From the IMG/VR virus record IMGVR_UViG_3300037153_000606: a DNA stretch of 64,000 nt. The stretch is one strand, 5' to 3'. Of this stretch, positions 5,564 through 48,412 are shown in pieces (position 1 is the first letter of the stretch; each line of letters opens with the position of its first letter). The position numbers and the translations under genes were made by a program. The notes beneath the pieces are model-generated. The model did not search any database and had not been told where the DNA came from. It saw nothing but the letters and a program-made list of their open reading frames with translations. Source of the stretch: a virus.

Positions 5564-5908
5564 ATGGCCATCGCCACCGATACCGAGAAGAACTCGATCA
5601 TCACCAAGTACGGTTCCGACGTGGTGGCTTTTTCGCTGCACTCGGCCGACCCGGGAACCACCGGGGCGAACGAGTTGGGCGGCGGGTCACCCCCGTACGC
5701 CCGGAAGGCACCGGCCTGGTCCGCCCCGAACGCGGGTGTGATCACCAGCCAGACCGTCTTCGACATCCCTGCGGGGGCCACTGTGGCCTGGGTGGGGGCC
5801 TGGTCGTCGGTCTCCGGCGGCACCTTCCTGGACAAGGCCCAGGTCTCCCAGCAGCAGTTCAACAGCCAGGGCCAGTACCAGGTCAACGCCACGGCCACAG
5901 CGCAGTAG
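5564..5908 (+). CDS. small virion structural protein
   Basis: LHSADPGTTGANEL.GG..YAR..W motif common in actinophage structural genes; GGAGA RBS. Confidence 0.75.
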   Translation: MAIATDTEKNSIITKYGSDVVAFSLHSADPGTTGANELGGGSPPYARKAPAWSAPNAGVITSQTVFDIPAGATVAWVGAWSSVSGGTFLDKAQVSQQQFNSQGQYQVNATATAQ

Positions 5909-5918
5909 GGGGTGGCCC

Positions 5919-7529
5919 ATGGTCCCGCAGCAGCGGGACGTTCTGAACTATGACGCCACGTCGGTCTCCAACGCGTCTTTCAGCATCCCGCTACCTTCCA
6001 CCGTCACCGGCACCGACGGGGACGGCAACCCGATCTACACGATCACCATCCAGCCCGATGACTGGGGCATCGTGCTGGTGGTCTGGTCGGCGGTCAGTGG
6101 TTCCCCGCTCGCCGGGCTGAGCACCTCCTGGCAGGTGCTGCAACCGCCGACGGTGGCCAACCAGGTGTGTTTCGCGGTGCTGGCACGCCAATTCGTCGAT
6201 GGCGACACGGTCGTCGACATCGAGCTGACCGACAGCAGGTTCCTGCTCGCGGTCGGTATCTGGTACTCCGGCGCGGACCGGGTTGACACAGTGGGACAGC
6301 CGGGGATCAACCCGAGCGCGGTGCTGCAGACCTCGACCGCGCCGTCGATGGTCGCCTCTGGCGCGTCCGACGAGCTGGGCCTGTCGCTGTTCGTCTCGGC
6401 GATGCGGTCCGTGCCGCCGGTGGTGCAGGTCAGCCAGGGCACCGTGGTAGTCGGCAGGACCGGCAATCCGAACACGGTGCTCGGCCTGATCGCCGCCGGG
6501 CCGCTCTCAGGACCCGGGCCCACCGGGGACGTCATCGCCACCTACGACACAGGCGCACAGTCCCGCGCCGGGATCCAGCTCGGCCTGCTGACGCTCGGCG
6601 GGCAGATCGCCGGGACCGCCAGCTTCGGGACCCAGGTGACCCTCGCGGCCACCGGCGTCCCGGCACGGCCTACCGACGCCGCATTCGCTGTTGCGGTCGC
6701 ACTGGCCGTCACCGGCCTATCCGGTAGTCAGGCCGCGTTCACCCCGACGGTCGTACTCAGCGCAGTGGGGCGACCGATCGTCCCGATCAACCTCAACCCG
6801 GTCGTCAACCTGAGCACCGTCGGGCAGATACGCGGCTTCGCCACGAAGACCATGACCATCGGGCTGGCCACCATCGGCTCGCCCCACTTCACCGGCACGC
6901 CCGCGTTCAACCCGAGGGTCGTCCTCGCCGCCACCGGGGTGAAGAAGGTCAGCGGCATGATCGGCCTCGGCCCCACCGTGACACTCTCCACGCGGGGTCG
7001 GGCGCTGACCTGGGCACGTCCCGGTTTCACCGTCACCGTCCGGCTGGCGGCACTGGGCACCCCGACCATTCCCGGCACCGCCCATTTCCGGCCCGGCGTC
7101 ACGTTGTTCACCCGGCGCAACGGGGTCTTCATCCTCGGCACGGCGGGCTGGGGGCCGTTGGTCACACTGCGCGCCGCCGGTGTGTTGATGGCCACCTCCG
7201 GCAGTGCGGACTTCACCCCCGAGATCACTCTGACCGCCGACGGCACTCCGGACTTCACACCGGTCGGGGAAGTCGATTTCGGACTGCGGGTGACACTGGC
7301 CGCCGACGGGTTCTCGCTGCCGCGCGGCCCGGTGGGTGTCACCATCAAACCGGTGCTGCAGGAACCGGATCCGGACTGGCACGGGCGGCCCAAGGACGAG
7401 TACGACTGGCGGGTGGACCTGCCGGTCGGCACGGCCGGGTTCGATACTGAGGTCACCCTGATCGCCGAAGGCGGCGAGCTGCTCGGCGCGACCCAGCACG
7501 CCGCGCACACGTGGAGCGTGGACGAATGA
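5919..7529 (+). CDS. virion fibre/whisker-like protein with ~20-aa beta repeats
   Basis: About 12 copies of F.P.VTL.A.G-like units in the C-terminal half. Confidence 0.7.
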   Translation: MVPQQRDVLNYDATSVSNASFSIPLPSTVTGTDGDGNPIYTITIQPDDWGIVLVVWSAVSGSPLAGLSTSWQVLQPPTVANQVCFAVLARQFVDGDTVVDIELTDSRFLLAVGIWYSGADRVDTVGQPGINPSAVLQTSTAPSMVASGASDELGLSLFVSAMRSVPPVVQVSQGTVVVGRTGNPNTVLGLIAAGPLSGPGPTGDVIATYDTGAQSRAGIQLGLLTLGGQIAGTASFGTQVTLAATGVPARPTDAAFAVAVALAVTGLSGSQAAFTPTVVLSAVGRPIVPINLNPVVNLSTVGQIRGFATKTMTIGLATIGSPHFTGTPAFNPRVVLAATGVKKVSGMIGLGPTVTLSTRGRALTWARPGFTVTVRLAALGTPTIPGTAHFRPGVTLFTRRNGVFILGTAGWGPLVTLRAAGVLMATSGSADFTPEITLTADGTPDFTPVGEVDFGLRVTLAADGFSLPRGPVGVTIKPVLQEPDPDWHGRPKDEYDWRVDLPVGTAGFDTEVTLIAEGGELLGATQHAAHTWSVDE

Positions 7530-22530: not shown

Positions 22531-23807
22531 TGGCCGTCATCCAGAACGTCAACGAGGCACCGTCGTTCTTCGCCACCCAGTCCCAGAGCGACGTTTCCGA
22601 CGATCTGATCACCTCGCAGGTCGACCCGACCCAGCCGCAGGTCAACGGGCTGTCCAGCTACACCGACCCGCTGGTGGTCGACCACACGGTCAAGTCCCGG
22701 TTGCCGAACTTCGACCCCACCCTGTACAACCTCGATCCATCCAGTCACCTGATGCACTTCCTCGGTGCACTGCTCGGAGTGGCCGGGGTCGGCGGGCTGC
22801 GCCGCCAGCAGACCATCAACCGGATGTCGGGCACCATGGCGGGGGCGCACTTCCTGGACCTCGACGGGTTCTGGGGCGCGTTGTTCGGGGCGTACCGGAT
22901 GTCCGACGAGCAGATCCCCGAAGTGGACGGGGCGATCCTCGACCCGGCCGTCTCGGTCGCCGACCCGGAGACCTGGGACGCTGCTCGCAGCCGGGACGGC
23001 AAGATGCGCTCCCGGATCGTCCAACTGGCCGCCGGGTTCGCCCAGGGAGCCACTTACTCGGGAGTCCGGATGGCCGCCGAGGCGGTGCTGGGCAGCGAGG
23101 TGGACGTCTCGGAATCGTGGATGATCGTGGACACGCTGCCACCGGGGCATGCATCCACCGTGCAGCCCAACACCTATTTCGCGGTGCAGTCGCAGTACCA
23201 CACCTACGACGAGATGAAGGGCAACCGGTGGTCCGCCCTGCAGGGCGGGTACGTCGTGCCGGGCAACACCCCGCTGGGCAACCGGGGCGAGGTGGTGATC
23301 ACCCCGAAGCGGGCGATCAGCGACGAGGAACGCATCCAGGTCGCGCACGTGCTGCAGGATCTCGCCCCGGCCGGGGTAGTGATCACCGTGCTGGCCACTC
23401 CGGCGGTGGCGCACCGCGAGGTGCTGCCCCGTTTCGTCTACGCCGACTCCTCGGACTGGTCGGTCACCTCCGTCATCGCCTCCTACCAGAACGTCGAAGA
23501 CTTCGGCGATGTCATCTACCCGAGTGTGGACGGTGCGAACGCGGCCAGCCGCCCGGCGTTGAGCCAGTACAGCGGCGAGCGCTGGAACTACAACTCGCGG
23601 GTGGCTGCGGTCACCGCCTACCAGATGGTCAACAACGCGCAGTCCAGCACGGCGGTGGATGCCCAGACCATCCTCTACGCCGACGGCACGGCCCATGAGT
23701 ACGCCCCGACGCTGGCCATGTTGGACCCGAAGCAGGGGGCGTTGATCCGCACCGGGACCGAGGGTGTGCTCACCAGCTACCCGTACGCGGCCGGGCGGTT
23801 CGGATGA
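22530..23807 (+). CDS. baseplate wedge protein (I/gp7-like)
   Basis: Follows J; D...RSRI....GATY.G.R..AEA.LG..V.E.W; LAPAG. Confidence 0.7.
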   Translation: MAVIQNVNEAPSFFATQSQSDVSDDLITSQVDPTQPQVNGLSSYTDPLVVDHTVKSRLPNFDPTLYNLDPSSHLMHFLGALLGVAGVGGLRRQQTINRMSGTMAGAHFLDLDGFWGALFGAYRMSDEQIPEVDGAILDPAVSVADPETWDAARSRDGKMRSRIVQLAAGFAQGATYSGVRMAAEAVLGSEVDVSESWMIVDTLPPGHASTVQPNTYFAVQSQYHTYDEMKGNRWSALQGGYVVPGNTPLGNRGEVVITPKRAISDEERIQVAHVLQDLAPAGVVITVLATPAVAHREVLPRFVYADSSDWSVTSVIASYQNVEDFGDVIYPSVDGANAASRPALSQYSGERWNYNSRVAAVTAYQMVNNAQSSTAVDAQTILYADGTAHEYAPTLAMLDPKQGALIRTGTEGVLTSYPYAAGRFG

Positions 23808-26800
23808 CGTCGCCTCCGGCGGTCAACCCGGTCGGCACCGTCACGGCCCTCGCGCCGCTGTTCGTCGACCACTCCGATCTGGGCATCTTCAGCCAAGCGG
23901 TCAACGCCACGATGCAGACCAGCCCCGGCGCGCGACAGCTGGCCGGACAGATGTTCTGGTCCACCGACGCACGCCCGGCCGACTCGCCGGTTCAGGAGAC
24001 GCTGGAGATCTCGCTGTCCTCCACCCGGTTGGTGAACTGGATCAAGTTCGACATCTCGATCTTCCCGACCCTGATGGCGATCCAGTACTACGACGCGGCC
24101 AGCAACAACTGGCTGCCGCTACTGGACCAGTTCGGCCAGCCCTATCAGCAAATGATCATGCGGTCGATCCCGGTGCAGCTGCCCAACCCGGTCAACGTGC
24201 CCGGTCACCTGCACCCCCAGCACTCCTTCGTGGGGCACTGGCGGTCGGTGTCGCAGCGGCTCAAGCCGACCTATCTGCAGCGGCTGCGATTCGTGCTGCA
24301 GCGACTCAACAATGGTCTGGGACCGGTGAGCCCCCTGGGTGACCAGGTGCCCTACTCGCTGGCGCTGCGCAGCATCACCTTCGGTTACGAGGTCGCCACT
24401 CGCGCCGATGTGCCGCGCACCCTGCCGGTCGACGACACCTACAACCAGTCCTTCGCCTCCACCGATGACCTGCTCGGTTCTGCGATCGCGTTCTCGCTGC
24501 GTGATCCGGTGGTCAACCGGATCGTCGACAACACCGACACTGACGCGGATGCGATCTGGGTATGTGAACCGCAGCCCTATCCCGGAGCGGTGGTGTGCTT
24601 CTACGCCGACCTGCGCGACGCCACCGGGAATCCGCAACTGATCGACCAGATCTACATCAACCCGGTTTCCTCCGGGGCACACGTCACCGTCTACGTGTCC
24701 AACGACCTCACGGTCGGCGGTTTCGATTCGCCCACCACCCCGTTGGACATCACCCAGGTGCAGACCGTCGGCACCACCCCGGTGACGATCCAGTACGGTC
24801 GCCTGCTCCATTTCGGTCAGTACGGCGAGCAGGCCGCGCTGGCCATCACCAATGTGCCGTTGGATGTGAACGACCCGGCCATGCGGCACAAGGCGGTGCT
24901 CGGTTACGACCCCACATTGCCGTGGTGGTTCGGGGTGACCGTGAGCCCCGGTTTCGACCAGGGGGTGGACACCGCCGAGCACCCGATCTTCGACTGTGGG
25001 GTATGGCGGCTCTCGCTCACCGCCGACGGGGTGACGCTGATTTTCGCCGACGGGGATGCGCACATCTGCCCGATTACCTACCAGGGGTTGCAGGACACCT
25101 CGGTCGTGGTGAGTTACGACGGCGAGGGCACCTTCCACATGCACGCCCGCAACTCTTCCGACGACCAGACCGATGACTTCTGGGTGGTGCCGCTGCAGCC
25201 CACCCCGTCGCCGGTAGTGACTCTCGGGACCGATGTCGGGATGGAGTACTTCCTGAACTCCGACCTGACCTACATGGTGCTCAAGGAGGAGCTGGCCGAC
25301 GGCAGCGACGGGTACTTGGACAACCCCGGCAGTTACTGCACGGTCGCCCAGTTCTCCGGCAACGACACGCCGCAGTCGCACAACGCACTGCTGCGCCTGG
25401 ACCTGTCCGCGACCACCTTGATCGACGCCACCCACCCGTGGGGACTGTTCGGTGGCCCGAGCGCGCAGTACGAGAACCTGGTCTGGTCCCCGGTGCCGCG
25501 CGACTTCGTGATGACACGCGGGTGGATGTACCTGCCGCCGACCGAGGCGCGCTTCGTCAAGCTGGAGATCACCAACCTGCAGGCGGTGCCTTATGACGTG
25601 GCGGTGGTGGGACCGCAGCAGGTGAAGACCTTCCCGCCCCAGGTGCTCGACGCCTACCGGGACCAGTTGATCAACACCGCGTCGGTGGTGCCGCCACTAG
25701 GGGCGGCCACCCAGATCTCGCTGTCTGGGACGGTGCCGTACGAGCTGCCGGTCTTCGTCTCCACCGGCGGCAACGGGGACCGGGGCTACACGAACACCGA
25801 GGTCTACATCTCCGACGACTACAGCGCCCAGGAGCGGCTGCGTGCGCTCAACGCGTCGGTGTGGAACTACCAGACTTGGCACGTGGGGATCCGGGCTCCC
25901 CGCTTCACGAGCGCCCAGGTGCATCGCTACACCCAGGAGACGATCACCCGCACCGGGAAGGTCGCCTACCAGTGCGGCCTGCGCCAGATCTCGTTCGCCT
26001 ACTCCTCGTTCACCTCCCAGCAGGACACCGGGATGTACGAGGAGACGTTCTACTCCGATCGCAACATCAACAACGACCCCAACCAGACCAACATCGTCTA
26101 TGACCCTGATCTGGACGCGCTGTACTCCGGCGATACCACGACCAAGGCGAGCGCCACGTCGCTGGTCTACACGTCGTTGCGGGACGTGCGCGCGGTGCAG
26201 TTCGCGGTGCAACAGTCGCAGCCGGTGCAGCTGCTGCCCGACGACGAGTTCGAGGACCCGAGCTACTCGAACTGGACGCTGCTCGGCGATGTCGCACCGC
26301 CGCAGGAAGGGATCGTCACCTCGCCGGTGTTCGGTTCGCTGCTGCCGATCGACCGCCAGCTGGTGGGAGGGTTCTGGGCCGATATCGAGCCGGTGTACCA
26401 CACCTGGGGCGGCATCACCGACCAGGGCAAGCTCTACAGCGATCTGGGGTCCAACGTCCCGAAGTCGGACGAGACCTACGGCGGGGTGGCCTCGGCCCCT
26501 GTCACCCAACCGGCCGGTGGGCGGCTGTACGCGGCGGCACGGGTGGTCTCCGACCAGGACTTGTCCAGTCCGCTGTCGCTGCAAATCATGGACTCGGTCA
26601 CCGGCCAGCCGTTGGCCGAAAAGTCGATCAACGTGAAGGCCAACCAGGTGACCGAGTGGTACGTCGGGTACACCGTCGGCGAGGGCGGTGAGACCACCGC
26701 CAATACGTGGGGCGATTTGACTGGTGCCTACCTGAACAACTTCCCGTCGTTCTCGGACAGCTTCCAGCGCGCCGACTCCACATCGCTGGGGCTGATGGAC

Positions 26801-28588
26801 TCCGGCCAGCAGTGGCAGTCCCCGGCCTCCTCGGCGGGCTCGCTGGCCATCGTCAACAAGATCGCGGTGTGCAATGTCGCCGGGCAGGTCAGCTGGGTGG
26901 ACACCCAGACACCGTGGGGCACGCTGTCTGTGGTGCTGGGGAACTCGTTCACCACCGGCACCGCGTCGGCCTCGGTGCCGTTGCTCTACCTGGGCCATTA
27001 CCGGCTGATGAACGACGGCCGGGTGGTGGACAGCAACACCGGCCGGGTGGTCGCCACCACCGCCGGGATCGCCACCGGAGATTCGCTGCAGGCCACATTC
27101 CTGCCCACCGCGCTGCTCTCCTCACCGCCGGGCGGCGTTGACCCGACCGTGCAGTCCTGGTCGTTCACGCTCTCCCGCAACGGCACCCAGGTCGCCACTC
27201 TGTCCAGTGCGCACGGCATCGGCACGATGCGCGGGCTGGCCGGTGCGGTCGGCCAGCAGTTCACCTCGTTCAGCTGGGTGCCCCGTGCGGCGGCCGTCCC
27301 GGCCGGGACGGTCATCCCGGCCCAGCCGATGCCCACCGACGGCGCGGAGGACCCGTCCGGGCTGCAGTGGGTGCAGGCCAACGGCCAGGTATGGAGCACT
27401 CCGCAGTCCCCCATGCAAAGTCCGCCGGTGCCACCCACGTGGGGAAGTCTCCCGGCGTGGCAGGGCGGCGCGAACACCATCACCGCCCCGGCCTTCCCGA
27501 GCGGTGATACCCCGGCCATCGTGATGGTCTCGACCGACACCGGAAACCAGTACGGCACGTTCATCTTCCGGATCACCCAGCTCGCCGCCACGATCGCGGC
27601 CAACACCTATTCGATCGCGGTGCTCGACCAGCCCAACGCGAACACCCAGCTGCAGCTGCAGGCCAACGGCGACCTGGTCCAGGTGGTGTCCGGGACGGTG
27701 ACCACCGTCAAGGCGGGGGTGATCCCGGCGGCGTCGATGACGACCGGCGACATCGCGATCAAGTACGCCAAGACCTCGCAGCTGTCCACGGCGTTCAAGA
27801 CCGCTCAGGGCATCTCGAACAGCAGCGCCCAGAGCATGATCTTCATGGTCGACGACACGGTGGTCGGCACCTACTCCGGCAACAACATCTTCAGCCAGTC
27901 GATCCGGGGGTTGTTCGGTTACAACGACAACGCGGGGCACTACACCATCACCACCGGGTTCGGCTGGTTCACCGACGCCAACGGGGTGACCACCTCCTCG
28001 GGCGACGAGACCTGGGACGACGTGAGCGCGCACGAGTCGCGTACCTGGGGCGACCTGTCGATGAACATCAGCGAGGACAACCCCAACCCGGTCTTCGTCC
28101 AGGTGATCCAGGAGAACGCCTCGGTCGACTCGTGGTACATGGATACCTTGTCGCTGTTCTCCGACCCGATCGTGTGGGAGTTCTCCAACAACGGCGGGAA
28201 GAGCTGGGTACCCGGTTACGACGTGGCCAACAACCCGGAGGGGGCGGTCGCGTTCAACCCCAAGAACCCGAACGACCTGGCCGCCGTGTCCAACCAGCTC
28301 TGCTACCGGGTGACCATCTGGGCACCGGGGAAGTGGGTCAGCCACTTGGCGATCCGGCCCTGGTACCAGGGCTTCATGCGGTGCATGCCGTTCCGGCCGC
28401 AAGGCGTCCCGCAGGGCCCGAACATCAACCCGTGGGACCATTACCCGCCGATCGAGCTGGACCCGCGCTGGCAGGTGTGGCACCTGCCGATCCCGCGTGA
28501 ATGGTGGTTCGCGTTCCGGGTGCCGGACACCAGGCCGCGCTACATCACTCCGTACGTCACCGACAACGTCGTGGTCAGTGGGGTCTGA
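23804..28588 (+). CDS. large baseplate / minor tail protein (1594 aa)
   Basis: ATGA overlap; beta-rich with recurring TWxDL motifs. Confidence 0.75.
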   Translation: MTSPPAVNPVGTVTALAPLFVDHSDLGIFSQAVNATMQTSPGARQLAGQMFWSTDARPADSPVQETLEISLSSTRLVNWIKFDISIFPTLMAIQYYDAASNNWLPLLDQFGQPYQQMIMRSIPVQLPNPVNVPGHLHPQHSFVGHWRSVSQRLKPTYLQRLRFVLQRLNNGLGPVSPLGDQVPYSLALRSITFGYEVATRADVPRTLPVDDTYNQSFASTDDLLGSAIAFSLRDPVVNRIVDNTDTDADAIWVCEPQPYPGAVVCFYADLRDATGNPQLIDQIYINPVSSGAHVTVYVSNDLTVGGFDSPTTPLDITQVQTVGTTPVTIQYGRLLHFGQYGEQAALAITNVPLDVNDPAMRHKAVLGYDPTLPWWFGVTVSPGFDQGVDTAEHPIFDCGVWRLSLTADGVTLIFADGDAHICPITYQGLQDTSVVVSYDGEGTFHMHARNSSDDQTDDFWVVPLQPTPSPVVTLGTDVGMEYFLNSDLTYMVLKEELADGSDGYLDNPGSYCTVAQFSGNDTPQSHNALLRLDLSATTLIDATHPWGLFGGPSAQYENLVWSPVPRDFVMTRGWMYLPPTEARFVKLEITNLQAVPYDVAVVGPQQVKTFPPQVLDAYRDQLINTASVVPPLGAATQISLSGTVPYELPVFVSTGGNGDRGYTNTEVYISDDYSAQERLRALNASVWNYQTWHVGIRAPRFTSAQVHRYTQETITRTGKVAYQCGLRQISFAYSSFTSQQDTGMYEETFYSDRNINNDPNQTNIVYDPDLDALYSGDTTTKASATSLVYTSLRDVRAVQFAVQQSQPVQLLPDDEFEDPSYSNWTLLGDVAPPQEGIVTSPVFGSLLPIDRQLVGGFWADIEPVYHTWGGITDQGKLYSDLGSNVPKSDETYGGVASAPVTQPAGGRLYAAARVVSDQDLSSPLSLQIMDSVTGQPLAEKSINVKANQVTEWYVGYTVGEGGETTANTWGDLTGAYLNNFPSFSDSFQRADSTSLGLMDSGQQWQSPASSAGSLAIVNKIAVCNVAGQVSWVDTQTPWGTLSVVLGNSFTTGTASASVPLLYLGHYRLMNDGRVVDSNTGRVVATTAGIATGDSLQATFLPTALLSSPPGGVDPTVQSWSFTLSRNGTQVATLSSAHGIGTMRGLAGAVGQQFTSFSWVPRAAAVPAGTVIPAQPMPTDGAEDPSGLQWVQANGQVWSTPQSPMQSPPVPPTWGSLPAWQGGANTITAPAFPSGDTPAIVMVSTDTGNQYGTFIFRITQLAATIAANTYSIAVLDQPNANTQLQLQANGDLVQVVSGTVTTVKAGVIPAASMTTGDIAIKYAKTSQLSTAFKTAQGISNSSAQSMIFMVDDTVVGTYSGNNIFSQSIRGLFGYNDNAGHYTITTGFGWFTDANGVTTSSGDETWDDVSAHESRTWGDLSMNISEDNPNPVFVQVIQENASVDSWYMDTLSLFSDPIVWEFSNNGGKSWVPGYDVANNPEGAVAFNPKNPNDLAAVSNQLCYRVTIWAPGKWVSHLAIRPWYQGFMRCMPFRPQGVPQGPNINPWDHYPPIELDPRWQVWHLPIPREWWFAFRVPDTRPRYITPYVTDNVVVSGV

Positions 28589-30380: not shown

Positions 30381-33300
30381 ATGAGCGCGCTTCGCGACAC
30401 CATGCCGTACGACTTCACCAGCGGGCCGTATGACGAGGACACCACCAAGACCTACACATTGCCTTTCGACGTCACCATCGGCGGGATCACCACCGACCAG
30501 GTGACGGCGTGCTGCTGCGGGTGGATCGCGTTTGGCACCTTGAACTGGTCGGAGGACACCGATCAGGGTGGTACGACCGGGCGGTTCCCGACCGGGGATC
30601 CTGCCGCAAGCGGGCTCACTTCCGGTGGGTTGGTCTGTGCTTTCTTCGCACCGATCCCGACCGGCCAGGAAGGATCGCCCGCCTCGGTCAGCACCACCAC
30701 CATCGGCGGGGTACAGGCCTGGACCATTACCTGGCCGTTCCAGTATCTCGGTGGCGACTACATCACCAATGCGTTCCAGGTGGTGGTCTACAACAGCCCC
30801 GGCGGGTACCAGATCGAGATCAACATCGGCTCGATCCTGGTGGATCAGTGGCCGACCGACACCGCACCGGCGGGGATGCCGATGTTCGGTATCTACGTCC
30901 CGACTGCATCGGGTGAGACGACGATCCTGAGTGAGCCGGTGGCCGGTGCGTGGCTGGACTCCGACTCCGTGCACGGCCTGGCGAACAACACGGCCGGTAC
31001 TGACACGACCCCGGGCCGCTACACCTACGTCTCGGCAGCCCCTCCTCCGCCGGTCACCCTGCATGCCGTCGCGCACCTCTACCGGGTGGTGCAGGACGCC
31101 GCCGGAAACATCCTGCCGGGTGCCCAGGTGTCGCTGTGCGATCCGGGTTCGACCAGCATCATCCCGAACAAGCTCTACTCCGACGTCAACCTCACCGTGC
31201 CGATCTCCAACCCGTTCACCGTCCCGAACGGGATCATCGACGTCTACCTGGAACGACCCCGCAGTGTCACCGTGATCACCGTGTACGGCGGCAGCACGAT
31301 CACCGCCGACTACCTGGAGCTGATGCCGCTGGCCGAGAACATCCTCGCGGCCACCGGCCCGGTCGTGATCGACAACGACGCGTTCGCCGGTGGCGTGCTG
31401 CAGATGGTCAACTCGGCGACCGCCGAGTGGGTGGAACCGTCGTTCCTGTCCGGCGGGGTGGCCGAGATCCAGGCCGGTGAGAACGTCACTGTCGATGCGA
31501 CCGATCCCGCCTCGCCGGTGGTCTCGGCCAACCCCGGTGTCACCACGATTCAGCCTGGTACCAACATCACCGTCGATGCCACCGACCCGGCCCAGCCGAT
31601 CGTCGCTGCCGCAGGTGCCGCCGACGGCGATGTGGCGGCGCTGATCGCGAGCCCGACCAGCAACACCCACCAGCAGCTGAACACGCTCTACGGCGGCGCG
31701 CCGTCGAAGTGGTTCGTGCAGAACACCCCGTACGCCACGCACACCGCCGTCCCGACCCCGTACGAGGGGGACGAGTTCCTCTACACCACGACCGGTGCCG
31801 CGCCGCGTGTCGCCGGGGACGTGTGGACATACCACGCGAACGCCTGGGCCAAGACCGGCAACATCCTCGGCCCGCAGGGCCCGACTGGTGCTACCGGTGC
31901 GACTGGTCCGCAGGGGACGACAGGCGCGACAGGCCCACAAGGAACCACCGGTGCAACTGGCCCGCAGGGTTCGAAGGGTGATATCGGGGCGACCGGTGTT
32001 ACCGGTCCGCAAGGACCTGCCGGTCCTACCGGCCCCACCGGTACGACCGGATCACAAGGCCCGAAGGGCGACAAGGGCGATACAGGCGCGACAGGCCCGG
32101 CCGGGCCGACAGGTCCCACCGGGTTGCAGGGGAATGCCGGTCCCATCGGCGCAACAGGCCCGCAGGGCGACACCGGCCCACAGGGACCGATCGGGCCGGA
32201 AGGGCCGGTAGGGCCGCAGGGTGCGGCCGTCTCGGTGAAGGGCACCGTGGCGACCTCGGCCGACCTGCCCGCGACCGGCAACACCGCCGGGGACGGGTTC
32301 GTCGTCGATGACACCGGGCACCTGTGGTCCTGGACGGGTTCGGAATGGGTGGACTGTGGGGCGTTGCAGGGACCGCCCGGTGATCAAGGACCCTCCGGGG
32401 AGGGCGTGCCGACCGGAGGCACCGCCGGTCAGGTACTGTCCAAGATCGACGGGACTGATTTCAACACGCAATGGGTCGACCAGACTGGTTCCACCGAGGT
32501 CATCGACACCCGTGCCGCCGGAACCTCAGCCGATGATCTGACCACTCCCGGCCTCTACCTCATCACCGCGAGCCATCTGGGCATCGTCAACGCCCCAGTG
32601 GTGGACTCCGACTGCGTTGGCATCCTGACCGTCGACAGGTTCGATGATGCGTCGGAAGGCACTAACTACATCACCCAGGTTTGGCGAGCCACTGATGTCG
32701 ACAGGGGAGGTGATTACTGGTTCCGGTCCACCAATTACCTACCTGACTGGTTTGACTGGACACCCATCAAGATGGCGCTGTACCAGACCGTCAACGACTT
32801 CAACCTAGTGATGTTACCTGGTGTGTACCAGACATTTGGCAACTACCCAAACGGTCCTGGTTACGGCAGTAACGGGTTGCTTGTGGTGCAAACTCTTGGC
32901 AATGGAGCGGTCAACCCGGATGCGATGACCCCACCGACGCAAGTCCAGTATTGGACCGCTACTCTCAGTAATTATTCCTATCGACGCATCTACACCAACC
33001 TGGATGGTTGGAGCGCATGGAGTTTCGTCGGTTCTCTCCCGGCAGGCGGGAGTACCGGGCAGGTTCTCGCCAAGATCGACAACAATGATTACCGCGTCCA
33101 GTGGGTTGACCAGGCGGCAGGCGGTGGCGGTACCCCGTCGAGCACCGTCACCACCCAGGCAATCGGAGACACCGGGATAGTCGGCACCAGTACCAACTTC
33201 GCCCGCGAGGACCACGAGCACGGGATGCCCAACTTCGGCGGCGTCACGGCGCAGACCACTCCCGGAGCAGCATCATCGAACGGGTCGGCAACGTCGGTTT

Positions 33301-35165
33301 CCCGCAGCGATCACACGCACGGCACGCCGCTCAATTCGTTACCGACCGGAGGATCCGCAGGACAGGTTCTTTCCAAGATCGATTCAGCTAGTTACAACGT
33401 GCAGTGGGTGACAGTCGGCGTCTGGCGCGGTGAATGGGTGAGTGGCACAAGCTATGCCGCCAATGATGTCGTTACGAGTACCAGCATCTCCGGGGCCAAT
33501 ATCACGGCGACCTACGTGTGCACATCAGCGAACACCGGCACATCCGCACCGTCGCTGGACACCGCACACTGGGCCGAACTGGGTGCTCGGCACAACATCA
33601 ACGGCAACCTCACCCAGACGGAATCGGGAAACCCGCCGACCAACGCAAGGGAGTTGACACCGAAAAGCTACGTCGATTCACACGACATGCAGGCTGGCGG
33701 TACCGCTGGACAAGTGCTGACCAAACAGTCCGGCACCGACTACGACACTGCGTGGGCAGCACCTGCCGGTGTCATCACACCGGTGCAAACCATCAATCCA
33801 GCCAATGGCGCGATCACCATCGATGTCAGCAAGGGTGATGCCTATCTGCAGGTTTCTTCGCCGGGGATCACGAGCATTGCGCTCACGAATCCGGTCGACA
33901 ATCAGATCTTCAGGTTGACGATCAACCAAGGCATTTCAGGCAGTTTCCCGTACGACGTGATATGGCCGACGAACATTCAATGGGCCGGTCAGCCAGGAAC
34001 AACTGGGCCCAACCCGAATATGGCGGCCAATATGACGATCACCCTTCGGTACCGGGCATCGGGTTCGGCGTGGATCGAACTTGAGCGCAGCCAGATGCCC
34101 ATGGTCTACAAGGGTTCCTGGTCTGCGGCCAGCAACGCTCGTTTTCGGCGCGGTGACGTCGTGCTCTACAACGGCATGCCCTACGTCGCCACAGCGGACA
34201 AGGCGACGGCCGGGACCTGGGTGCCCGCCGAATGGCAAGCGCTCAGTGACCTGCCTACCGGCGGCACGGCTAATCAGGTGCTCACCAAGGTCGACGCAAC
34301 GAACTACAACACCGCTTGGCAGTCAGCAGCCCGGTGCAAGGTCGACACCTATGCGATAGCCGGTAGCTACACCTGGAACAAGCCCGCCGGGGCGATCATG
34401 GTCCAGGTCATAGGTATCGGCGGTGGTGCAGGTGGCGGATCTGGCAATACCACCGCATCGGCCGTTCTCGGCGTCGGAGGAGCGGGCGGTGCAGGCGGCG
34501 GATTGTTCAACCGCACCATCAACGCTGTGGACATTCCGGCGACTGTCTCGGTCATAGTCGGCGCAGGTGGGGCGGGGGGTGCCAGTGTCTCGGCCAACTC
34601 CACTGCAGGGAGCAACGGTGGCGGCGGGACGGGCTCGTCTTTCGGAGGTGCGACCTTCTATTGCAGCACCGCTACATCGGTTGCTGGATCCGGATCATCT
34701 ACCTCGATTCCCTCAGGTATCTACGGCGGGGGTAACGGTGCCGGGGGCGGGAGTGGTGTGGCGGGAGGAAGCGCTATCCCCGCTGTCTCTACAGTCGCTC
34801 CTCTGGGGCTGTTTGCCGGTGCGGGCGGTGGCGGTGGAGGTGGAGGGATTTCCGCTGCCAATGCCGCCGCCGCCGGTGGTTCCGGTGGGGCGACTTCGGC
34901 CGGTTCGGGGACTTTTTCGTCCGGTGGTGCCATCGCGACCAACGGCAGTGCAGGCAACCTCAATGCGTCGACCCCCAACTCGGTGTATGCCGGAAGTGGC
35001 GGCGGTGGTGGAGGTTCGGGGTTGACCGCAGCTGGTGGGTCTGGCGGTGCTGGGGGTTGGCCAGGGGGAGGCGGTGGCGGCGGAGGTGCCGCCCGCAACG
35101 GGTACACCTCGGGGGCCGGAGGCAATGGTGCGGACGGCTTCGTGCAGGTCATCACCTGGTTCTAG
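30381..35165 (+). CDS. tail fibre 2: mosaic of collagen-like repeat, knob-like domains, CBM-like modules and Gly-rich C-terminus
   Basis: (Gly-X-Y)n; [15 protein letters not shown] knob-like units; [21 protein letters not shown] end. Confidence 0.88.
31869..32222 (+). repeat. collagen-like Gly-X-Y coding repeat
   Basis: [19 protein letters not shown]... about 39 triplets. Confidence 0.9.
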
Positions 35166-35299: not shown

Positions 35300-35626
35300 G
35301 TGATGTCGACGCTTGACTATGCCGCCGCGCGTGCCGTGGCGCGGGCGCGACTCCTCGAACGCGCGGTGCACGACTCGGGCCCCTGGCAGATCGAGATCGC
35401 CGGGATCCGCGAGGACGCGGTCAAGGTCCGTACCCCGCACCGGGTGCTGTTCCTGGCCAATTTCTACTCCGTTCCCGACCCGGACGCCACGGTGGCGTGG
35501 CTGCTCTGCGATGGGCAGTTCCTGTCCTCCAAGGACATCCGGCTCGGCGACTCCGGGCCGTTCTCCATCGAGTGGTCCATCATCGGCCCGGATTCGCTGG
35601 AGCCCTCGTCACCGGCAGTCGCATGA
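35300..35626 (+). CDS. hypothetical protein
   Basis: [12 protein letters not shown]; ATGA overlap with the helicase; TTGACA at 35233 in the AT-rich upstream gap. Confidence 0.75.
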   Translation: MMSTLDYAAARAVARARLLERAVHDSGPWQIEIAGIREDAVKVRTPHRVLFLANFYSVPDPDATVAWLLCDGQFLSSKDIRLGDSGPFSIEWSIIGPDSLEPSSPAVA

Positions 35627-37197
35627 CCGCATCACCGGCCGCCGCCGCCCGGCCGGTGATGGACAACGGGCGGCTCTTCCACTCCCCACTCGGCCTATTC
35701 GGCTTCCAGGCCGAGTGCGTGGCACGCGCCTACTACCAGGACGGGCTGCTCGCGGTCTGCGATACCGGGCTCGGCAAGACGATCATCTCGATGGCGCTGG
35801 CCGCGCAGCTGTTCCAGGACGACCAGGTCGACCTCGTCATCCACGTGGCGCAGAAGAACAAGATCGACAAGAGCGAGTTCCCGGCCGACTGGGCCCGGTT
35901 CAGCTCGCTGCGCACGCACGTCTACCACGGCACCAACCGGGGCAGGCGACTGGCCAAGGCGGGCACCCCGGACGTGCTGATCAGCACCTACGAGACGCTG
36001 CGCGAGGACCTGGTCATCTTCTCCGGCCGGTCCGGGCGGGCCCGCACCGACGGCATGCTGGTCGAGGTGCTCAAGCTGCGCACCGCACGGGTGCTGTGGA
36101 TCTTCGACGAGATCAGCAAGCTGGGCAACCGGTCCTCCAAGCTGTACCGCGCCTTCGAGTACGTGCTCACCCAGCAGCGCAACCACGGCCTGCCGCCCCG
36201 GGTGCTGGGTCTCTCGGCTACCCCGATGTCCACCGACTACGAGCAGCCGTTCAACATCGGCCGGATCGTCTGGCCCGCCCGGATGCCGAGCGTCACCTAC
36301 TTCGAGGACACCTACACCTACGGCCGCGACGACCACGGGCGGCTGCTGTACAAGCGCGGTGCCCGGGAGTGGTTCGCCGCCCAGTTCGAGCCGCTGATCT
36401 ACCGCAAGCGGCGCACCGACCCGGACGTGGTCGACCAGATGCCCCGGCTGATGGAGAAGGTGCTCCCGGTCGACCTGCACCCGGAGCACCGTGCGCTCTA
36501 CGAGGCCGTGGGACGCCTGTACGGCCCCGATCCCACCCCGAGGCAGCAGGACCTGCTGCTGATGGCCCAGCGGCTCACTGCGGGCCATCCCCGGGCACTG
36601 CTGCGCAGCGGCTCGGAACTGGCCAAGGCGGTGGTGGAGACGCTCGGCGCAGACCGGCTGCGAGCCGTCCCGTCGGCCAAGACGCTACGGCTGATCGAGC
36701 TGCTGTCCACACTGAAGGCGCAGGGCGACCCGGCGTTGGTGTTCTGCGCCTTCGCCGAGACCGTGCTGCCCGAGGTGGCCGCCGATCTGGTGTCCGCCGA
36801 CCTGCGGGTGGGTATCTACACCGGAGGGCAGTCGTCCAGCTCGAACGAGGCCGCCAAGGCCGCGTTCAAGGCCGGAGAGCTGGACGTACTGCTGTCCTCG
36901 GACGCTGCGGCTACTGGGCTGAACTTGCCTCAGGCGGCCTACGTGATCGAATACGATGCCGCGTCCACGTTCGCCCTGCGAACACAGCGGTTCGGACGCG
37001 GGTTGCGTATCGACTCGGCCAAGTCCCATGTCTATGGCTTGACTATTGTGGCCCGCCGGACCGTCGAGGTCGGCCTGCTGCAGAGCATGCTCAAACGCAA
37101 CGACCTACAAGACGAGTTGCACGGCGATCGTGGTGCAGAAGGACATCTCGACGCCAAAGTGCGCCGAGATGTCTCCTTCGAGGCGTTGCGGAATTAG
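35623..37197 (+). CDS. SNF2-like superfamily 2 helicase
   Basis: DTGLGKT, ISTYETLR, IFDEIS, LSATP, TGLNLPQA..VI.YD, QR.GR..RI. Confidence 0.9.
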   Translation: MTASPAAAARPVMDNGRLFHSPLGLFGFQAECVARAYYQDGLLAVCDTGLGKTIISMALAAQLFQDDQVDLVIHVAQKNKIDKSEFPADWARFSSLRTHVYHGTNRGRRLAKAGTPDVLISTYETLREDLVIFSGRSGRARTDGMLVEVLKLRTARVLWIFDEISKLGNRSSKLYRAFEYVLTQQRNHGLPPRVLGLSATPMSTDYEQPFNIGRIVWPARMPSVTYFEDTYTYGRDDHGRLLYKRGAREWFAAQFEPLIYRKRRTDPDVVDQMPRLMEKVLPVDLHPEHRALYEAVGRLYGPDPTPRQQDLLLMAQRLTAGHPRALLRSGSELAKAVVETLGADRLRAVPSAKTLRLIELLSTLKAQGDPALVFCAFAETVLPEVAADLVSADLRVGIYTGGQSSSSNEAAKAAFKAGELDVLLSSDAAATGLNLPQAAYVIEYDAASTFALRTQRFGRGLRIDSAKSHVYGLTIVARRTVEVGLLQSMLKRNDLQDELHGDRGAEGHLDAKVRRDVSFEALRN

Positions 37198-37256
37198 CCT
37201 CGCCCTGCCAAGCCATGCCCCGCTGAGCCGCGCCGGGCCTAGCCATGCCGTGCAGG
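37197..37256. repeat. pentamer-periodic tract (GCCNN)x12
   Basis: gcctc gccct gccaa gccat gcccc gctga gccgc gccgg gccta gccat gccgt gcagg. Confidence 0.85.
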
Positions 37257-37278: not shown

Positions 37279-37602
37279 ATGGCGCACACCCACCTGCTGA
37301 CGCAGGTCGAGTTCTGGATCCCGCCGTTGCTGGAGGAGCTGGCACCGGGTGAGAAGGTGACCTGGCAGGCGAGCTTCCTGACGCTGCCCGACCCGTCCGT
37401 GGAGGGCGGCGGCTGGGTGCCGGTGGTCTGCCTGTACCTGGAGGTGCCGGTGACGGCGGAGAACTCGTTCTACGGCACCACCATGCTGCCGCCGTTCGCG
37501 CTCACCCTGCCGCAGGTGCGCCAGGCGGTGGTGGAGACGCTGGAGCAGCTGGTCAAGCGCCGGGACGAATACCACGCCGCTAGCGGGGCCGACAAGACCT
37601 AG
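37279..37602 (+). CDS. hypothetical protein (107 aa)
   Basis: Strong third-position GC bias. Confidence 0.75.
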   Translation: MAHTHLLTQVEFWIPPLLEELAPGEKVTWQASFLTLPDPSVEGGGWVPVVCLYLEVPVTAENSFYGTTMLPPFALTLPQVRQAVVETLEQLVKRRDEYHAASGADKT

Positions 37603-37603
37603 A

Positions 37604-38323
37604 TTCCGGGGCCGCGAGGGGGTTAGGTTCCCGGAACAGACAGAAGCCCCGAGTCGTAGCCTCGAAGCTGCGTGCCGTCGTCGCTACGGGCCCAGGGCCT
37701 CTATCTGCCTTTACCAGCGATGGGAGCGTAGCTGATGTTGTGCACAGCGCACCAGTGATCGCCGAATAACGGCATTACGTCGTTATTGGCGAGCCCGACG
37801 CTAACCAGCCGCCCGCATGGTCCGGGCTGGCATGACCGAAAACTGTCGGGGCCGGGATGAACTCCGGTTCGAACCCAGGTCGCACTGGACGGTTGCGTGC
37901 GCCCGGAAATGGGTGTCCGGGAGTTCTTGCACACCGAAGACCGACGATCCGACCCGGGCAAGCGTGCCGTCCGGGGCGAGTCGGGGTGAGACCCGGAGCG
38001 TGGCGGGACAGGGGAAGCCCGAACCCGGCCCGAGACGTCGGATGTGCAGGGACACCGCGACCAGGTAGCCGTGACGGCTGGAACACCCGGAGTCCGGTGC
38101 TGCCGAGACCGCACGGCCCCAGTTAGCGGCTGGGGCTGCCTGAACAAGGCCGAAGGCATCTGTCGTTAGCTGCCGCCGTAACCCCCTGCTGGAGGGGGTG
38201 GTGGTGTCTCGGCATCCTGATGCCACCGGTACGGGGTGTGGGATGCGTCGACAGCCTGATCCTGGGTGCGGGAGCAGGCAGCGGATGCCCTAGGGTCGGG
38301 AGGCAACGGTTGGACATCCAGCC
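37604..38323 (+). ncRNA. candidate large structured non-coding RNA (class unknown; strand inferred from G-U wobble pattern)
   Basis: ~720 nt with no credible CDS; more than 15 nested helices, long-range pairings and T-loop-like loops found by eye. Confidence 0.7.
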
Positions 38324-38360
38324 ACATGTCACCACCTACCGGGACGGGAACGGACCTTAC

Positions 38361-38618
38361 GTGCCACTTGCCACCAACTTCCCGCGCCGCCAGGCACCCA
38401 CCGGATCCTTGCGTTGCCTGGCCTGCCTGTCCCGGCACCGGCTCACCCGGATCTGTCTCGGGCAGGGTGTCACCTGGATGTGTCCGACCTGCCTGCGGCT
38501 GGTGGACCACCTGGCCAGTGTCGAGGGGGTGGACCGGGACCGCGCGGTACGCCGCACGGTGCGGACCATGCGGGCGGCCTCGGCAGCGGAGACGATGCAC
38601 CGCGCGGGCCGCCGTTGA
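38361..38618 (+). CDS. small zinc-ribbon protein (start uncertain)
   Basis: CLAC...CPTC followed by a basic helix. Confidence 0.6.
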   Translation: MPLATNFPRRQAPTGSLRCLACLSRHRLTRICLGQGVTWMCPTCLRLVDHLASVEGVDRDRAVRRTVRTMRAASAAETMHRAGRR

Positions 38619-47680: not shown

Positions 47681-48412
47681 ATGCGGCAGACGGCGCAGGT
47701 CGACGTCAGTGTCGTCGGCCTGCGCCACGAGGGTGCGCTCACCGACGAGTCGTGCTACGACGAGCGCACCGGGATGCCGTCCTACACCACCCGCGAGGTC
47801 AGCGAGTTCTTCTTCGGCCACGCCCGGACTTGGCTCTACGACCACCTGCGGCGCGGGCACATCGAGCTGGACGCGGAGCTGGTGGTGATCCCGTTCCGGC
47901 CCTCCGGCAAGGAGTACCGGTGGCGGCTGTGCGACGTGGAGCGCACCGCGATCGGGCTGGCTCAGGGCGGCTACATCGACGCGGTGATGCTCTACCGGGC
48001 ATTGTCGATCGTGCGCCTGGTGGCGGAGAGCTTCGGCTACCTGTCCACCGAGGTGGAACTGGTGGTCGGCGAGCACGACCCGTACCGGACGGAGGTGGCG
48101 GCGGTGCAGACCCAGGAGGTCGTCACCGACGACCTGGACGGCTCCCAGGGAGCCGTGGAGCGGCGTTTCGCGCTCGGCGACATCGAGTACCGCATCGACC
48201 TGACCGAGGCCAACTGGAAGGCGCTGTGCGAGCTGGTGCGCCCGTTCACCGACGCGGCCCGCTCCACTTATCGCAAGGCCACCCACCCGCGTCAGTACGG
48301 GCTCAAGGCGGTGCGTGAGTGGGCCCAGGCGCAGGGTCTCGATGTGGGCCGCACCGGCCCGGTGCCGCACGCGATCACCGACGCCTACCTGCGCGAACAT
48401 GGGCAACGATGA
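47681..48412 (+). CDS. N-terminal HTH fused to a C-terminal Lsr2-like protein
   Basis: YTTREVSEFFFG..WLY (HTH); DDLDG..F.L..Y.IDL..N..L and VREWA..G..V...VP..I.DAY (Lsr2 domains). Confidence 0.85.
   Translation: MRQTAQVDVSVVGLRHEGALTDESCYDERTGMPSYTTREVSEFFFGHARTWLYDHLRRGHIELDAELVVIPFRPSGKEYRWRLCDVERTAIGLAQGGYIDAVMLYRALSIVRLVAESFGYLSTEVELVVGEHDPYRTEVAAVQTQEVVTDDLDGSQGAVERRFALGDIEYRIDLTEANWKALCELVRPFTDAARSTYRKATHPRQYGLKAVREWAQAQGLDVGRTGPVPHAITDAYLREHGQR

What the first reader, a model, noticed from the sequence alone, without database searches (positions are those of the whole stretch)
37604..38323. Candidate large ornate non-coding RNA (~600-720 nt) of unrecognised class
Seen: the largest gap without a credible gene in a tightly packed genome, and almost all of it can pair. 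Local helices: TTCCGGG/CCCGGAA (37604/37630); CGTAGC/GCTACG; a tRNA D-arm-like TA-GCTG..CAGC (37729-37748); TCGCC-AATAACGGC/GTCGTTATT-GGCGA (37759-37792); GCCCCAG/CTGGGGC; ACCCCCT/AGGGGGT; AGCCG/CGGCT; GGTTGG/CCAGCC. Nested long-range helices: GCACC/GGTGC (37749/38096), CCGGG/CCCGG (37852/38086), GAACTC-CGG/CCGGGAGTTC (37859/37917), TGCACA/TGTGCA (37928/38043), CCGACG/CGTCGG (37941/38036), TGCCGAGAC/GTCTCGGCA (38101/38206). A possible pseudoknot AGCGATGGG/TCTGTCGTT (37716/38159). T-loop-like sequences GGTTCGAACCC (37866), GTGAGAC and CTGAACAAG. Known: phages carry large ornate RNAs such as GOLLD and ROOL. I see no hallmark of tmRNA, RNase P or group I/II introns. Inference: a new multi-junction phage RNA with tRNA-like parts, possibly working with the flanking SNF2 helicase, 107-aa protein and zinc-ribbon protein.
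Basis: partly seen in the sequence, partly recalled or inferred. Interest (0 to 1): 0.88.

Follow-up and report, generated by a model that had tools for sequence, protein, structure and literature searches.

The report
Conserved structured non-coding RNA candidate, phage
A 700-base gene-free stretch in an uncultivated high-GC phage of about 150 kb holds a roughly 460-base element that is conserved and keeps its base-pairing in related phages, matches no known RNA family, and so is a credible but unproven new structured phage RNA.

Summary
The gap is real. Window 37603-38309 lies between a 107-aa gene and a zinc-ribbon ORF that probably starts at TTG 38310. It has no codon-position GC signal, no conserved ORF and no protein-family hit.

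It is not one 720-nt RNA:
- 37604-37708: two strong terminator-like hairpins behind the upstream gene.
- 37713-37756: an unconserved, lower-GC spacer.
- About 37757-38218: a conserved core.

The core is 75% identical to a related metagenomic phage (L003). Perfectly identical blocks of up to 37 nt are separated by indels that are not multiples of three, while the rest of the gap cannot be aligned.

Eleven related phages carry an element at the same place, after the SNF2 helicase and a small gene (one is cut off by its contig end). The ten complete ones fall into three sequence types. Most share a 5' module: a hairpin with a GUCGUU loop, then CCCGACGCUAACCAGCC.

Consensus folds beat column shuffles on the + strand (z -3.3, -3.25, -6.0) and are weaker on the - strand. 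Compensatory pairs exceed the controls in all three types.

Rfam 15 and ARAGORN give nothing.

Expression and function are untested. My best reading is a stand-alone structured ncRNA of a new, modular family. The scan noted this same stretch once before, on the same genome.

The parts
35623..37197 (+). SNF2-family helicase gene, the conserved upstream anchor of the locus
   Evidence: Pfam SNF2-rel_dom and Helicase_C, PHROG DNA helicase. The 524-aa form is the one on record for this phage.
37279..37602 (+). 107-aa gene of unknown function. A homologue lies between the helicase and the element in the nine relatives aligned.
   Evidence: Third-position GC 0.95-1.0. Homologues aligned from 9 loci. 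AlphaFold pLDDT 91.8, helix, three strands, helix. No significant fold match.
37604..37636 (+). Hairpin 1, directly after the stop codon (terminator-like)
Evidence: RNAfold -15.4 kcal/mol. The sequence is not conserved in L003.
37637..37708 (+). Hairpin 2, a long imperfect stem followed by CUAUCUGCCUUU (terminator-like). Relatives carry their own long GC-rich hairpin at this position.
   Evidence: RNAfold -31.6 kcal/mol. Analogous hairpins seen in the L003, L007, L011 and L018 sequences. The simple terminator scan found no + strand site, so the terminator role is inferred.
37713..37756 (+). Unconserved spacer with the lowest GC of the gap. A possible promoter region (inferred only).
   Evidence: GC 0.55 at 37700-37799. 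Cannot be aligned with L003. No sigma-70-like match.
37759..37792 (+). P1 hairpin: arms UCGCC/GGCGA plus an inner stem, with GUCGUU in the loop region
   Evidence: Predicted in the MFE of window, L003, L011, L015 and L018. The arm sequences covary between types: CUCGCC/GGCGAG, CUCCC/GGGAG, CUCAC/GUGAG.
37794..37815 (+). M1 motif CCCGACGCUAACCAGCCGCCCG, near-invariant in types A and C and in two type B members
   Evidence: Exact or near-exact in L003, L011, L020, L015, L018, L007 and L050; more diverged (3 of 16 bases) in the truncated L012. No complementary target elsewhere in the window.
37816..38198 (+). Type A body, a multi-helix region. The best supported hairpins are 37849-37870, 37953-37975 (loop AAGCGUGCC), 37976-38001, 38115-38137 and 38182-38198.
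   Evidence: Consensus fold of window and L003: 134 pairs, 12 with compensatory double changes against 0-1 in slid controls. Coordinates. Identical blocks of 37, 27, 24, 24 and 21 nt.
38199..38218 (+). Conserved 3' segment UGGUGGUGUCUCGGCAUCC. It can pair either with 37788-37807 (closing the whole domain) or with 38101-38120.
Evidence: Both are invariant in L003, so the choice is open.
38219..38309 (+). Unconserved spacer with a GGGAGG ribosome-binding site at 38298-38303
   Evidence: 14% identity to L003 after alignment. Sequence read.
38310..38618 (+). 102-aa zinc-ribbon-like ORF (two CxxC pairs), probable start TTG 38310. It does not keep this position in relatives.
   Evidence: Third-position GC rises only after about 38320 in this frame. 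Gene call on sister contigs. No Pfam hit and no BLASTP similarity to the downstream genes of relatives.

Best explanation
Window 37757-38218, + strand, most likely encodes a structured non-coding RNA of about 460 nt. It belongs to a modular RNA family found in a clade of uncultivated high-GC phages of about 150 kb.

Proposed layout:
- It sits between the terminator hairpins of the tail-fibre/SNF2-helicase operon and the replication genes.
- A 5' hairpin (P1, GUCGUU loop) is followed by an exposed, near-invariant motif (CCCGACGCUAACCAGCC).
- Then comes a many-helix body that exists in at least three exchangeable versions. The window carries type A.
- A G-rich 3' segment can pair back to the 5' module and close the domain.

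Proposed mode of action (inferred): the RNA is made from its own promoter and acts in trans. The invariant single-stranded motif and the conserved loops would be contact sites for a protein, another RNA or the RNA itself.

Shown: conservation, lack of coding potential, strand-biased conserved pairing, and absence from known families.
Inferred: transcription, the RNA ends, action in trans, and any function.
For: - Not coding: flat codon-position GC. Indels against L003 of 1, 2, 3, 13 and 31 nt. No family hit for the internal ORFs.
- Selection on the core only: core 75% identical over 418 aligned nt, with identical runs up to 37 nt. The two ends of the same gap are at 33% and 14%. Helicase third codon positions are at 67%.
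- Same locus in relatives: L003, L007, L011, L001, L015, L018, L020, L043, L050, and L012 (truncated).
- Consensus fold against column shuffles: + strand z -3.3, -3.25 and -6.0; - strand z -1.6, -0.7 and -3.8.
- Pairs with a change on both sides, against shuffles: type C 15 vs 6.1+-1.9, type B 20 vs 8.6+-2.1, type A 12 vs 6.0+-1.8. No shuffle out of 500 reached the observed value in any type. Slid controls gave 0-7.
- Two stacked helices in type C carry 6 and 4 covarying pairs.
- G-U pairs in the conserved long helices fit the + strand.
- No Rfam 15 hit in the window or in four relatives.
Against: - There is no expression evidence.
- Only 2 sequences of type A and 4 each of types B and C. The tested structures were predicted from the same alignments, which inflates the counts.
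- The minus strand also folds better than shuffles in the window alone (z -3.1) and in type C (z -3.8).
- The three types share only the 5' module. A covariance model of the type C centre finds no type A or B member. Two type B members lack the 5' module. So 'one family' is uncertain.
- No promoter or terminator was recognised for the RNA itself.
- Type B travels with an HNH-like gene in a mosaic block, so part of the conservation could reflect recent exchange.
Confidence: 0.5

Rival explanations
1. The element is a cis-acting structured leader (5' UTR) of the rightward genes that follow. It would control their transcription read-through, translation or stability, and would not be a free RNA.
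For: - It always lies upstream of + strand genes and 90-270 nt from the next start.
- In type B the last hairpin lies next to or over an AUG that gene callers used as the start of the downstream gene in L011.
- It follows terminator-like hairpins, so a new transcription unit probably starts here.
Against: - The downstream genes are unrelated between relatives: a zinc-ribbon ORF, a 135-aa ORF, an HNH-like gene, an 88-aa ORF, a DinG-like helicase.
- 200-460 nt of ornate structure is large for a leader.
- The 90-270 nt between the conserved core and the next gene are unconserved.
- No riboswitch or leader family of Rfam matches.
Confidence: 0.2
2. The conserved core works as DNA: an origin of replication, or a recombination or packaging site at the head of the replication module. 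The hairpins would then be DNA structures or protein-binding sites.
For: - It sits between the SNF2 helicase and a replication cluster: AAA_25 ATPase, DinG-like helicase, FEN, DnaB, primase-like protein, Pol III alpha.
- The type changes independently of the helicase tree, as specificity determinants of origins often do.
Against: - No iterons or direct repeats of note, and no AT-rich unwinding region. The minimum GC is 0.55 and it lies outside the conserved core.
- Compensatory changes spread over many helices, G-U pairs, and a consistent + over - asymmetry all point to RNA.
Confidence: 0.12
3. The stretch has no function of its own. It would be a mosaic junction holding remnants of exchanged modules or decayed genes, with similarity between phages due to recent horizontal exchange (for example with homing-endonuclease genes) and not to selection.
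For: - L011 and L043 share 75% identity over 549 nt (element plus HNH-like gene), although their helicases are only about 47% identical to the window's at protein level.
- The element types are not congruent with helicase similarity.
Against: - Within one gap the core is conserved while both ends are randomised.
- Perfect blocks alternate with variable helices that keep pairing.
- Covariation is above controls in three independent types.
- The M1 motif is near-invariant across phages whose helicases are 53-75% identical.
Confidence: 0.1
4. The gap hides one or more small protein-coding genes with atypical codon usage.
For: ORFs of 83-152 codons exist on both strands. A gene caller called a 77-aa ORF over the type C element of L050.
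Against: - No codon-position GC signal.
- Frame-breaking indels against L003.
- No Pfam or PHROG hit.
- Callers left the gap empty in six assemblies.
Confidence: 0.03

Closest known systems
GOLLD RNA (Rfam RF01998)
   Same: A large, many-helix non-coding RNA encoded by phages and prophages, with unknown function. It also has one conserved end and one variable part (PMC12286853; there the 3' region is the conserved one).
   Different: No match to the Rfam model even at E<=10. No tRNA genes nearby, whereas GOLLD is often near tRNA islands. Here the 5' end is the conserved one. About 460 nt against more than 800 nt for many GOLLD members.
ROOL RNA (Rfam RF03087)
   Same: A phage- or prophage-borne ornate RNA of about 500-600 nt with no known protein partner and no known function (PMC12286853).
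   Different: No match to the Rfam model. Different genomic context: the replication module after an SNF2 helicase, and not tRNA islands. High-GC host range inferred from composition and an Lsr2-like gene.
tmRNA and tRNA-like RNAs of large actinophages
   Same: Structured RNAs carried by large phages of high-GC hosts (my own knowledge).
   Different: ARAGORN finds no tRNA or tmRNA and no tmRNA family of Rfam matches. I read no conserved tag reading frame: the frame after the M1 motif ends in TGA in the window but stays open in L003 (read by eye). There is no 3' CCA-bearing acceptor arm. The T-loop-like U is C in L003.
Bacterial RNase P RNA
   Same: Similar size, GC-rich, with short strings reminiscent of the conserved regions (GGAAA..GUCCGGG, GAACCCGG).
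   Different: No Rfam hit. The P4-like pairing I tried by hand is not kept in a common register between the window and L003 (sequence). So the resemblance is superficial.

Membership tests
GOLLD (RF01998) | Match to the family covariance model | tested here: not met
   cmscan at gathering score on the whole window, and at E<=10 on 37400-38500: no GOLLD hit. None in L001, L003, L007 or L011.
GOLLD / ROOL | Frequent position next to tRNA islands in phages or prophages (PMC12286853) | tested here: not met
   ARAGORN finds no tRNA in the 64-kb window. The neighbours are a helicase and replication genes. This is a tendency of these families, not a strict criterion.
ROOL (RF03087) | Match to the family covariance model | tested here: not met
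   No hit.
tRNA / tRNA-like element | Cloverleaf with T-arm and D-arm detectable by a tRNA finder; conserved T-loop | tested here: not met
   ARAGORN: 0 genes. GGTTCGAACCC reads GGCTCGAACCC in L003 and lies in a predicted stem. The 'D-arm' lies in unconserved spacer.
tmRNA | tRNA-like domain formed by the 5' and 3' ends, with CCA, plus a tag reading frame ending in a stop | tested here: not met
   ARAGORN and the Rfam tmRNA families give no hit. Read by eye, the candidate frame after the M1 motif stops in the window but not in L003 (sequences).
RNase P RNA | Match to the RNase P covariance models; conserved P4 helix | tested here: not met
   No Rfam hit. The P4-like pairing is not kept in register between the window and L003 (manual reading).
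HEARO / omega RNA of IscB-TnpB | Match to the model, and an adjacent IscB or TnpB nuclease gene | tested here: not met
   No Rfam hit. The neighbours are an SNF2 helicase, a 107-aa protein and a zinc-ribbon ORF. Only a small, sub-threshold HNH-like gene follows type B elements.
Riboswitch / cis-regulatory leader | Constant association with one downstream gene family; match to a known aptamer model | tested here: not met
   The downstream genes differ between relatives. No riboswitch model matches. A new kind of leader is not excluded.
Phage origin of replication (DNA element) | Iterons or direct repeats and an AT-rich unwinding element | tested here: not met
   Only three weak two-copy repeats. 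GC 0.55-0.75 across the gap.
Intrinsic terminator (for hairpins 37604-37708 only) | GC-rich stem-loop followed by a U-run | tested here: inconclusive
   Strong stems of -15.4 and -31.6 kcal/mol, but the tail is only U-containing (CUAUCUGCCUUU). The consensus scan reports no + strand site. Relatives have analogous hairpins.
New structured RNA family (working definition) | Conserved non-coding sequence with covariation-supported helices at a syntenic locus | tested here: met
   Caveat: few sequences, and the structures were derived from the same alignments.
New structured RNA family (working definition) | A discrete transcript | not testable with these tools
No cultured relative: the helicase is at most 28% identical to any deposited phage.

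The most novel reading that the evidence does not exclude
A previously undescribed class of large modular phage RNAs. It would have a conserved 5' hairpin-plus-motif module and a G-rich 3' segment that clamp a swappable ornate body of 200-450 nt, in at least three versions exchanged between phages. It would act as an RNA machine or RNA-only assembly during infection: a ribozyme, a scaffold or a decoy against host defence.
Probability: 0.3. Interest if true: 0.85.

Novelty: new variant of a known kind. Interest (0 to 1): 0.62.

Why it matters
Few large structured RNAs are known from phages (GOLLD, ROOL), and none has an established function. A further family would widen that set. This one comes from a different host range (high-GC, probably actinobacterial) and a different genomic setting (the replication module, not tRNA islands).

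Its apparent modularity, a shared 5' module with exchangeable bodies, offers a natural experiment on which parts carry function. It would also give concrete targets for structure work and for covariance-model mining of metagenomes.

On the practical side, it shows that gene callers place spurious ORFs on the element (L050).

Tried and rejected
- **Rfam 15.** Gathering scores on the whole window and E<=10 on the gap gave only chance-level hits: mir-5985 at 21 bits against a threshold of 100, and asR3 at 16 against 46. Nothing in four relatives.
- **ARAGORN.** No genes.
- **blastn of the gap against 50,697 phage records.** No match.
- **Exact-pattern scans.**
  - Viral contigs returned nothing new.
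  - A 21-mer scan of genome-contig hit a Bradyrhizobium MAG and a Streptomyces genome. Only the 21 nt matched, so these are chance hits.
  - The M1 pattern in 401 Actinomycetota genomes gave only 2-mismatch hits, about as many as the reversed control: 17 against 15 by my count of the columns.
- **Locus and run searches.**
  - The search for related loci with the 107-aa protein found nothing. The helicase found nothing in genome contigs.
  - No whole genome is held for the window.
- **Joining the three types.**
  - A joint alignment of types A and C gave no convincing common structure.
  - nhmmer profiles of each type find only their own type.
  - The covariance model R1 of the type C centre finds only type C.
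- **Search for a closing helix.**
  - A duplex search with the 24 nt around M1 gave no common 3' partner.
  - With the segment just after M1, a 3' GGGUG(G) motif ranks among the top four partners in four of the eight sequences. This is suggestive only.
- **Complement of M1.** No target elsewhere in the window.
- **Hand comparisons.** RNase P P4, a tmRNA tag frame, the ydaO 3' motif and a bipartite promoter (the spacing between the boxes varies from 11 to 17 nt) were all rejected.
- **Fold of the 107-aa protein.** Foldseek against the PDB gave E>=0.04. VIA-align gave best Z 6.4 (ribosome hibernation factors, secretion chaperones), within the chance range stated by the tool. There is no basis to call it RNA-binding.
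- **Promoter scan.** No sigma-70-like site.

Full report
**What the window is.** The window has about 66% GC throughout. It carries phage genes in one main direction: tail-collar/fibre proteins and an SNF2-family helicase upstream of the gap. Downstream lies a replication module: an AAA_25 ATPase, a DinG-like helicase, an Lsr2-like protein, a 5'-3' exonuclease, a DnaB-like helicase, a weak Toprim match and DNA polymerase III alpha. The helicase protein on record occurs on contigs of up to 149,996 bases. It is at most 28% identical to any deposited phage. So this is an uncultivated phage of about 150 kb, probably of an actinobacterial host. The host is inferred from GC content and the Lsr2-like gene. 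No whole genome is held for the window.

- Codon-position GC shows clean coding signals up to the TAG at 37600-37602 and again from about 38320. Between them all three positions lie at 0.5-0.8.
- The downstream ORF with the coding signal is the 38220 frame. Gene calls on sister assemblies start it at the equivalent of TTG 38310, behind a GGGAGG at 38298. The gap is therefore 37603-38309.
- The ORFs inside it (83-152 codons, both strands) hit nothing in Pfam or PHROGs.
- The stretch folds better than dinucleotide shuffles on both strands: z -3.48 and -3.10, from 20 shuffles each.
- Rfam 15 gives no hit at gathering score and only two chance-level hits at E<=10. ARAGORN finds no tRNA or tmRNA in the whole window.

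**Relatives.** blastn against deposited phages found nothing, so I went through the helicase. Its homologues of 47-75% identity led to contigs whose DNA I could fetch. Nine of the fetched relatives show the same order: helicase, a small gene homologous to the 107-aa gene (alignment), then a stretch without a credible gene. L019 seems to lack a large gap.

L003 has a helicase gene 76% identical in nucleotides. It aligns with window 37778-38162 at 75% and with 38194-38224 at 94%. The alignment shows fully identical blocks separated by variable segments, with indels of 1, 2, 3, 13 and 31 nt.

| Region compared with L003 | Identity | Longest identical runs |
|---|---|---|
| Core of the gap | 67% with gaps counted | 37, 27, 24, 24, 21 nt |
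| 5' part of the gap | 33% | 4 nt |
| 3' part of the gap | 14% | 5 nt |
| Helicase, third codon positions | 67% | not measured |

Neutral sequence between these two phages is therefore saturated, and the core is held by selection acting on every base, not on codons.

**Three types.** The elements fall into three sequence types:
- Type A: window and L003.
- Type B: L007, L011, L043, L001.
- Type C: L015, L018, L020, L050.
- L012 shows the start of a further variant before its contig ends.

Types A and C, and two type B members, share a 5' module. It is a hairpin with GUCGUU in or near the loop, whose arms change in a compensatory way between types (CUCGCC/GGCGAG, CUCCC/GGGAG, CUCAC/GUGAG). It is followed by the near-invariant CCCGACGCUAACCAGCC.

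Beyond that module the types cannot be aligned. Profile HMMs and a covariance model of the type C centre find only their own type. L043 and L001 lack the 5' module.

The type does not follow helicase similarity. Type B occurs with helicases 75% and 47% identical to the window's. L011 and L043 share a 549-nt block at 75% that includes a small HNH-like gene. The locus is therefore mosaic.

**RNA or DNA, and which strand?**

| Type | z, + strand | z, - strand | Pairs changed on both sides | Shuffle mean +- sd | Slid controls |
|---|---|---|---|---|---|
| A | -3.3 | -1.6 | 12 | 6.0 +- 1.8 | 0-1 |
| B | -3.25 | -0.7 | 20 | 8.6 +- 2.1 | 2-7 |
| C | -6.0 | -3.8 | 15 | 6.1 +- 1.9 | 2-6 |

- The z values compare consensus folding energies with column-shuffled alignments. 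No shuffle out of 500 reached the observed count in any type.
- In type C two stacked helices carry 6 and 4 covarying pairs around a conserved loop ACACGGGC.
- The long conserved helices of type A contain G-U pairs, which would be A-C mismatches on the other strand.
- Caveats: there are only 2-4 sequences per type, the structures were predicted from the same alignments, and relatedness alone inflates shuffle tests.
- The gap has no iterons and no AT-rich segment. The lowest GC (0.55) lies in the unconserved spacer. This speaks against a classical origin.

**Anatomy in the window.**
- 37604-37636 and 37637-37708: two strong hairpins (-15.4 and -31.6 kcal/mol) directly after the stop codon. Relatives carry their own long GC-rich hairpin there. 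I read them as the terminator of the upstream operon. This is inferred; the consensus scan does not call them.
- 37713-37756: unconserved spacer, a possible promoter region (inferred).
- 37759-37792: hairpin P1.
- 37794-37815: motif M1.
- 37816-38198: the type A body. The hairpins best supported by compensatory or wobble changes are 37849-37870, 37953-37975 (conserved loop AAGCGUGCC) and 37976-38001. Two invariant hairpins lie at 38115-38137 and 38182-38198.
- 38199-38218: a conserved segment that can pair with 37788-37807 and close the domain, or with 38101-38120. Both partners are invariant in L003, so I cannot decide. A G-rich GGGUG(G) string near the 3' end of all three types ranks among the top four duplex partners of the segment after M1 in four of the eight sequences. 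This is suggestive only.
- 38219-38309: unconserved spacer, then the ribosome-binding site.

- Kept in L003, but mostly invariant: CCGGG/CCCGG, GAACTC-CGG/CCGGGAGTTC, TGCCGAGAC/GTCTCGGCA, GCCCCAG/CTGGGGC, ACCCCC/GGGGG.
- Broken in L003: TGCACA/TGTGCA, CCGACG/CGTCGG, GCACC/GGTGC.
- The D-arm-like piece and one arm of the pseudoknot lie in unconserved sequence.
- The T-loop-like string changes its first U in L003 and lies in a stem.

**What it does.** Nothing here shows function. I commit to a stand-alone structured RNA acting in trans (0.5). My reasons are that the conserved core is separated from the next gene by unconserved sequence, the downstream genes are unrelated between relatives, the body is large and ornate with conserved loops, and an invariant 16-22 nt motif looks like a recognition site.

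The rivals are:
- a cis-acting leader (0.2);
- a DNA element of the replication module (0.12);
- a functionless mosaic junction (0.1);
- hidden small genes (0.03).

The 107-aa neighbour folds confidently (pLDDT 92; helix, three strands, helix) but has no significant structural relative. I make no claim that it binds the RNA.

**Comparison with known RNAs.** The nearest known things are GOLLD and ROOL: large phage-borne RNAs of unknown function, often near tRNA islands, GOLLD with one conserved and one variable half (PMC12286853). The present element matches neither model. It has no tRNA neighbours, is conserved at the 5' end and not the 3' end, and sits in a replication module. tmRNA, RNase P, HEARO and riboswitch readings each fail a defining feature (see the membership table). 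Two literature searches found no description of such an element. The scan's own notes hold only another first-stage reading of this same stretch.

**Verdict.** This is a real, conserved, probably RNA-level element without a known family.

Noticed in passing
L050:5648-5881: A gene caller placed a 77-aa ORF on top of the type C element. The profile of type C matches L050 5545-5966 at E 1e-43, so the ORF call is probably spurious.
   Followed up: partly
L007:7644-8012, L011:2606-3055, L043 about 5880-6300: A small HNH-like gene (Pfam HNH E 0.0015, below threshold; 39% identity between L007 and L011) follows type B elements. L011 and L043 share element plus gene at 75% over 549 nt, although their helicases are distant. 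This looks like a mobile or mosaic block.
   Followed up: partly
window 23804-28588 and 30381-35165: Two + strand ORFs of exactly 1594 codons each flank the 622-aa tail-collar-domain gene. They may be duplicated fibre-like genes. I did not compare them.
   Followed up: no
window 37279-37602: The 107-aa protein gives a very confident model (pLDDT 92; helix, three strands, helix) with no Pfam or PHROG family and no significant PDB fold match. In the nine relatives I aligned, its homologue lies directly after the SNF2 helicase.
   Followed up: yes
window 47681-48412: A 243-aa protein with Lsr2 dimerisation and DNA-binding domains (Pfam E 1e-11 and 1e-7). This supports an actinobacterial host.
   Followed up: partly
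window 35313-37226: A 637-codon ORF overlaps the helicase gene in another frame. Its translation is Arg/Pro/Ala-rich, the usual long spurious frame of high-GC DNA. The true helicase is the 35497/35623-37197 frame.
   Followed up: yes
window 38103-38122; L008:5865-5885; L009:6769-6789: A 21-nt string of the element occurs exactly in a Bradyrhizobium MAG and a Streptomyces genome. Nothing around it matches, so it is a chance match in GC-rich DNA.
   Followed up: yes
L019:5536-6582: This relative (helicase 56% identical) shows only a 144-nt gap after the small gene, followed by a called 300-aa gene. No element of types A-C was detected, so the element may be absent or replaced there.
   Followed up: partly
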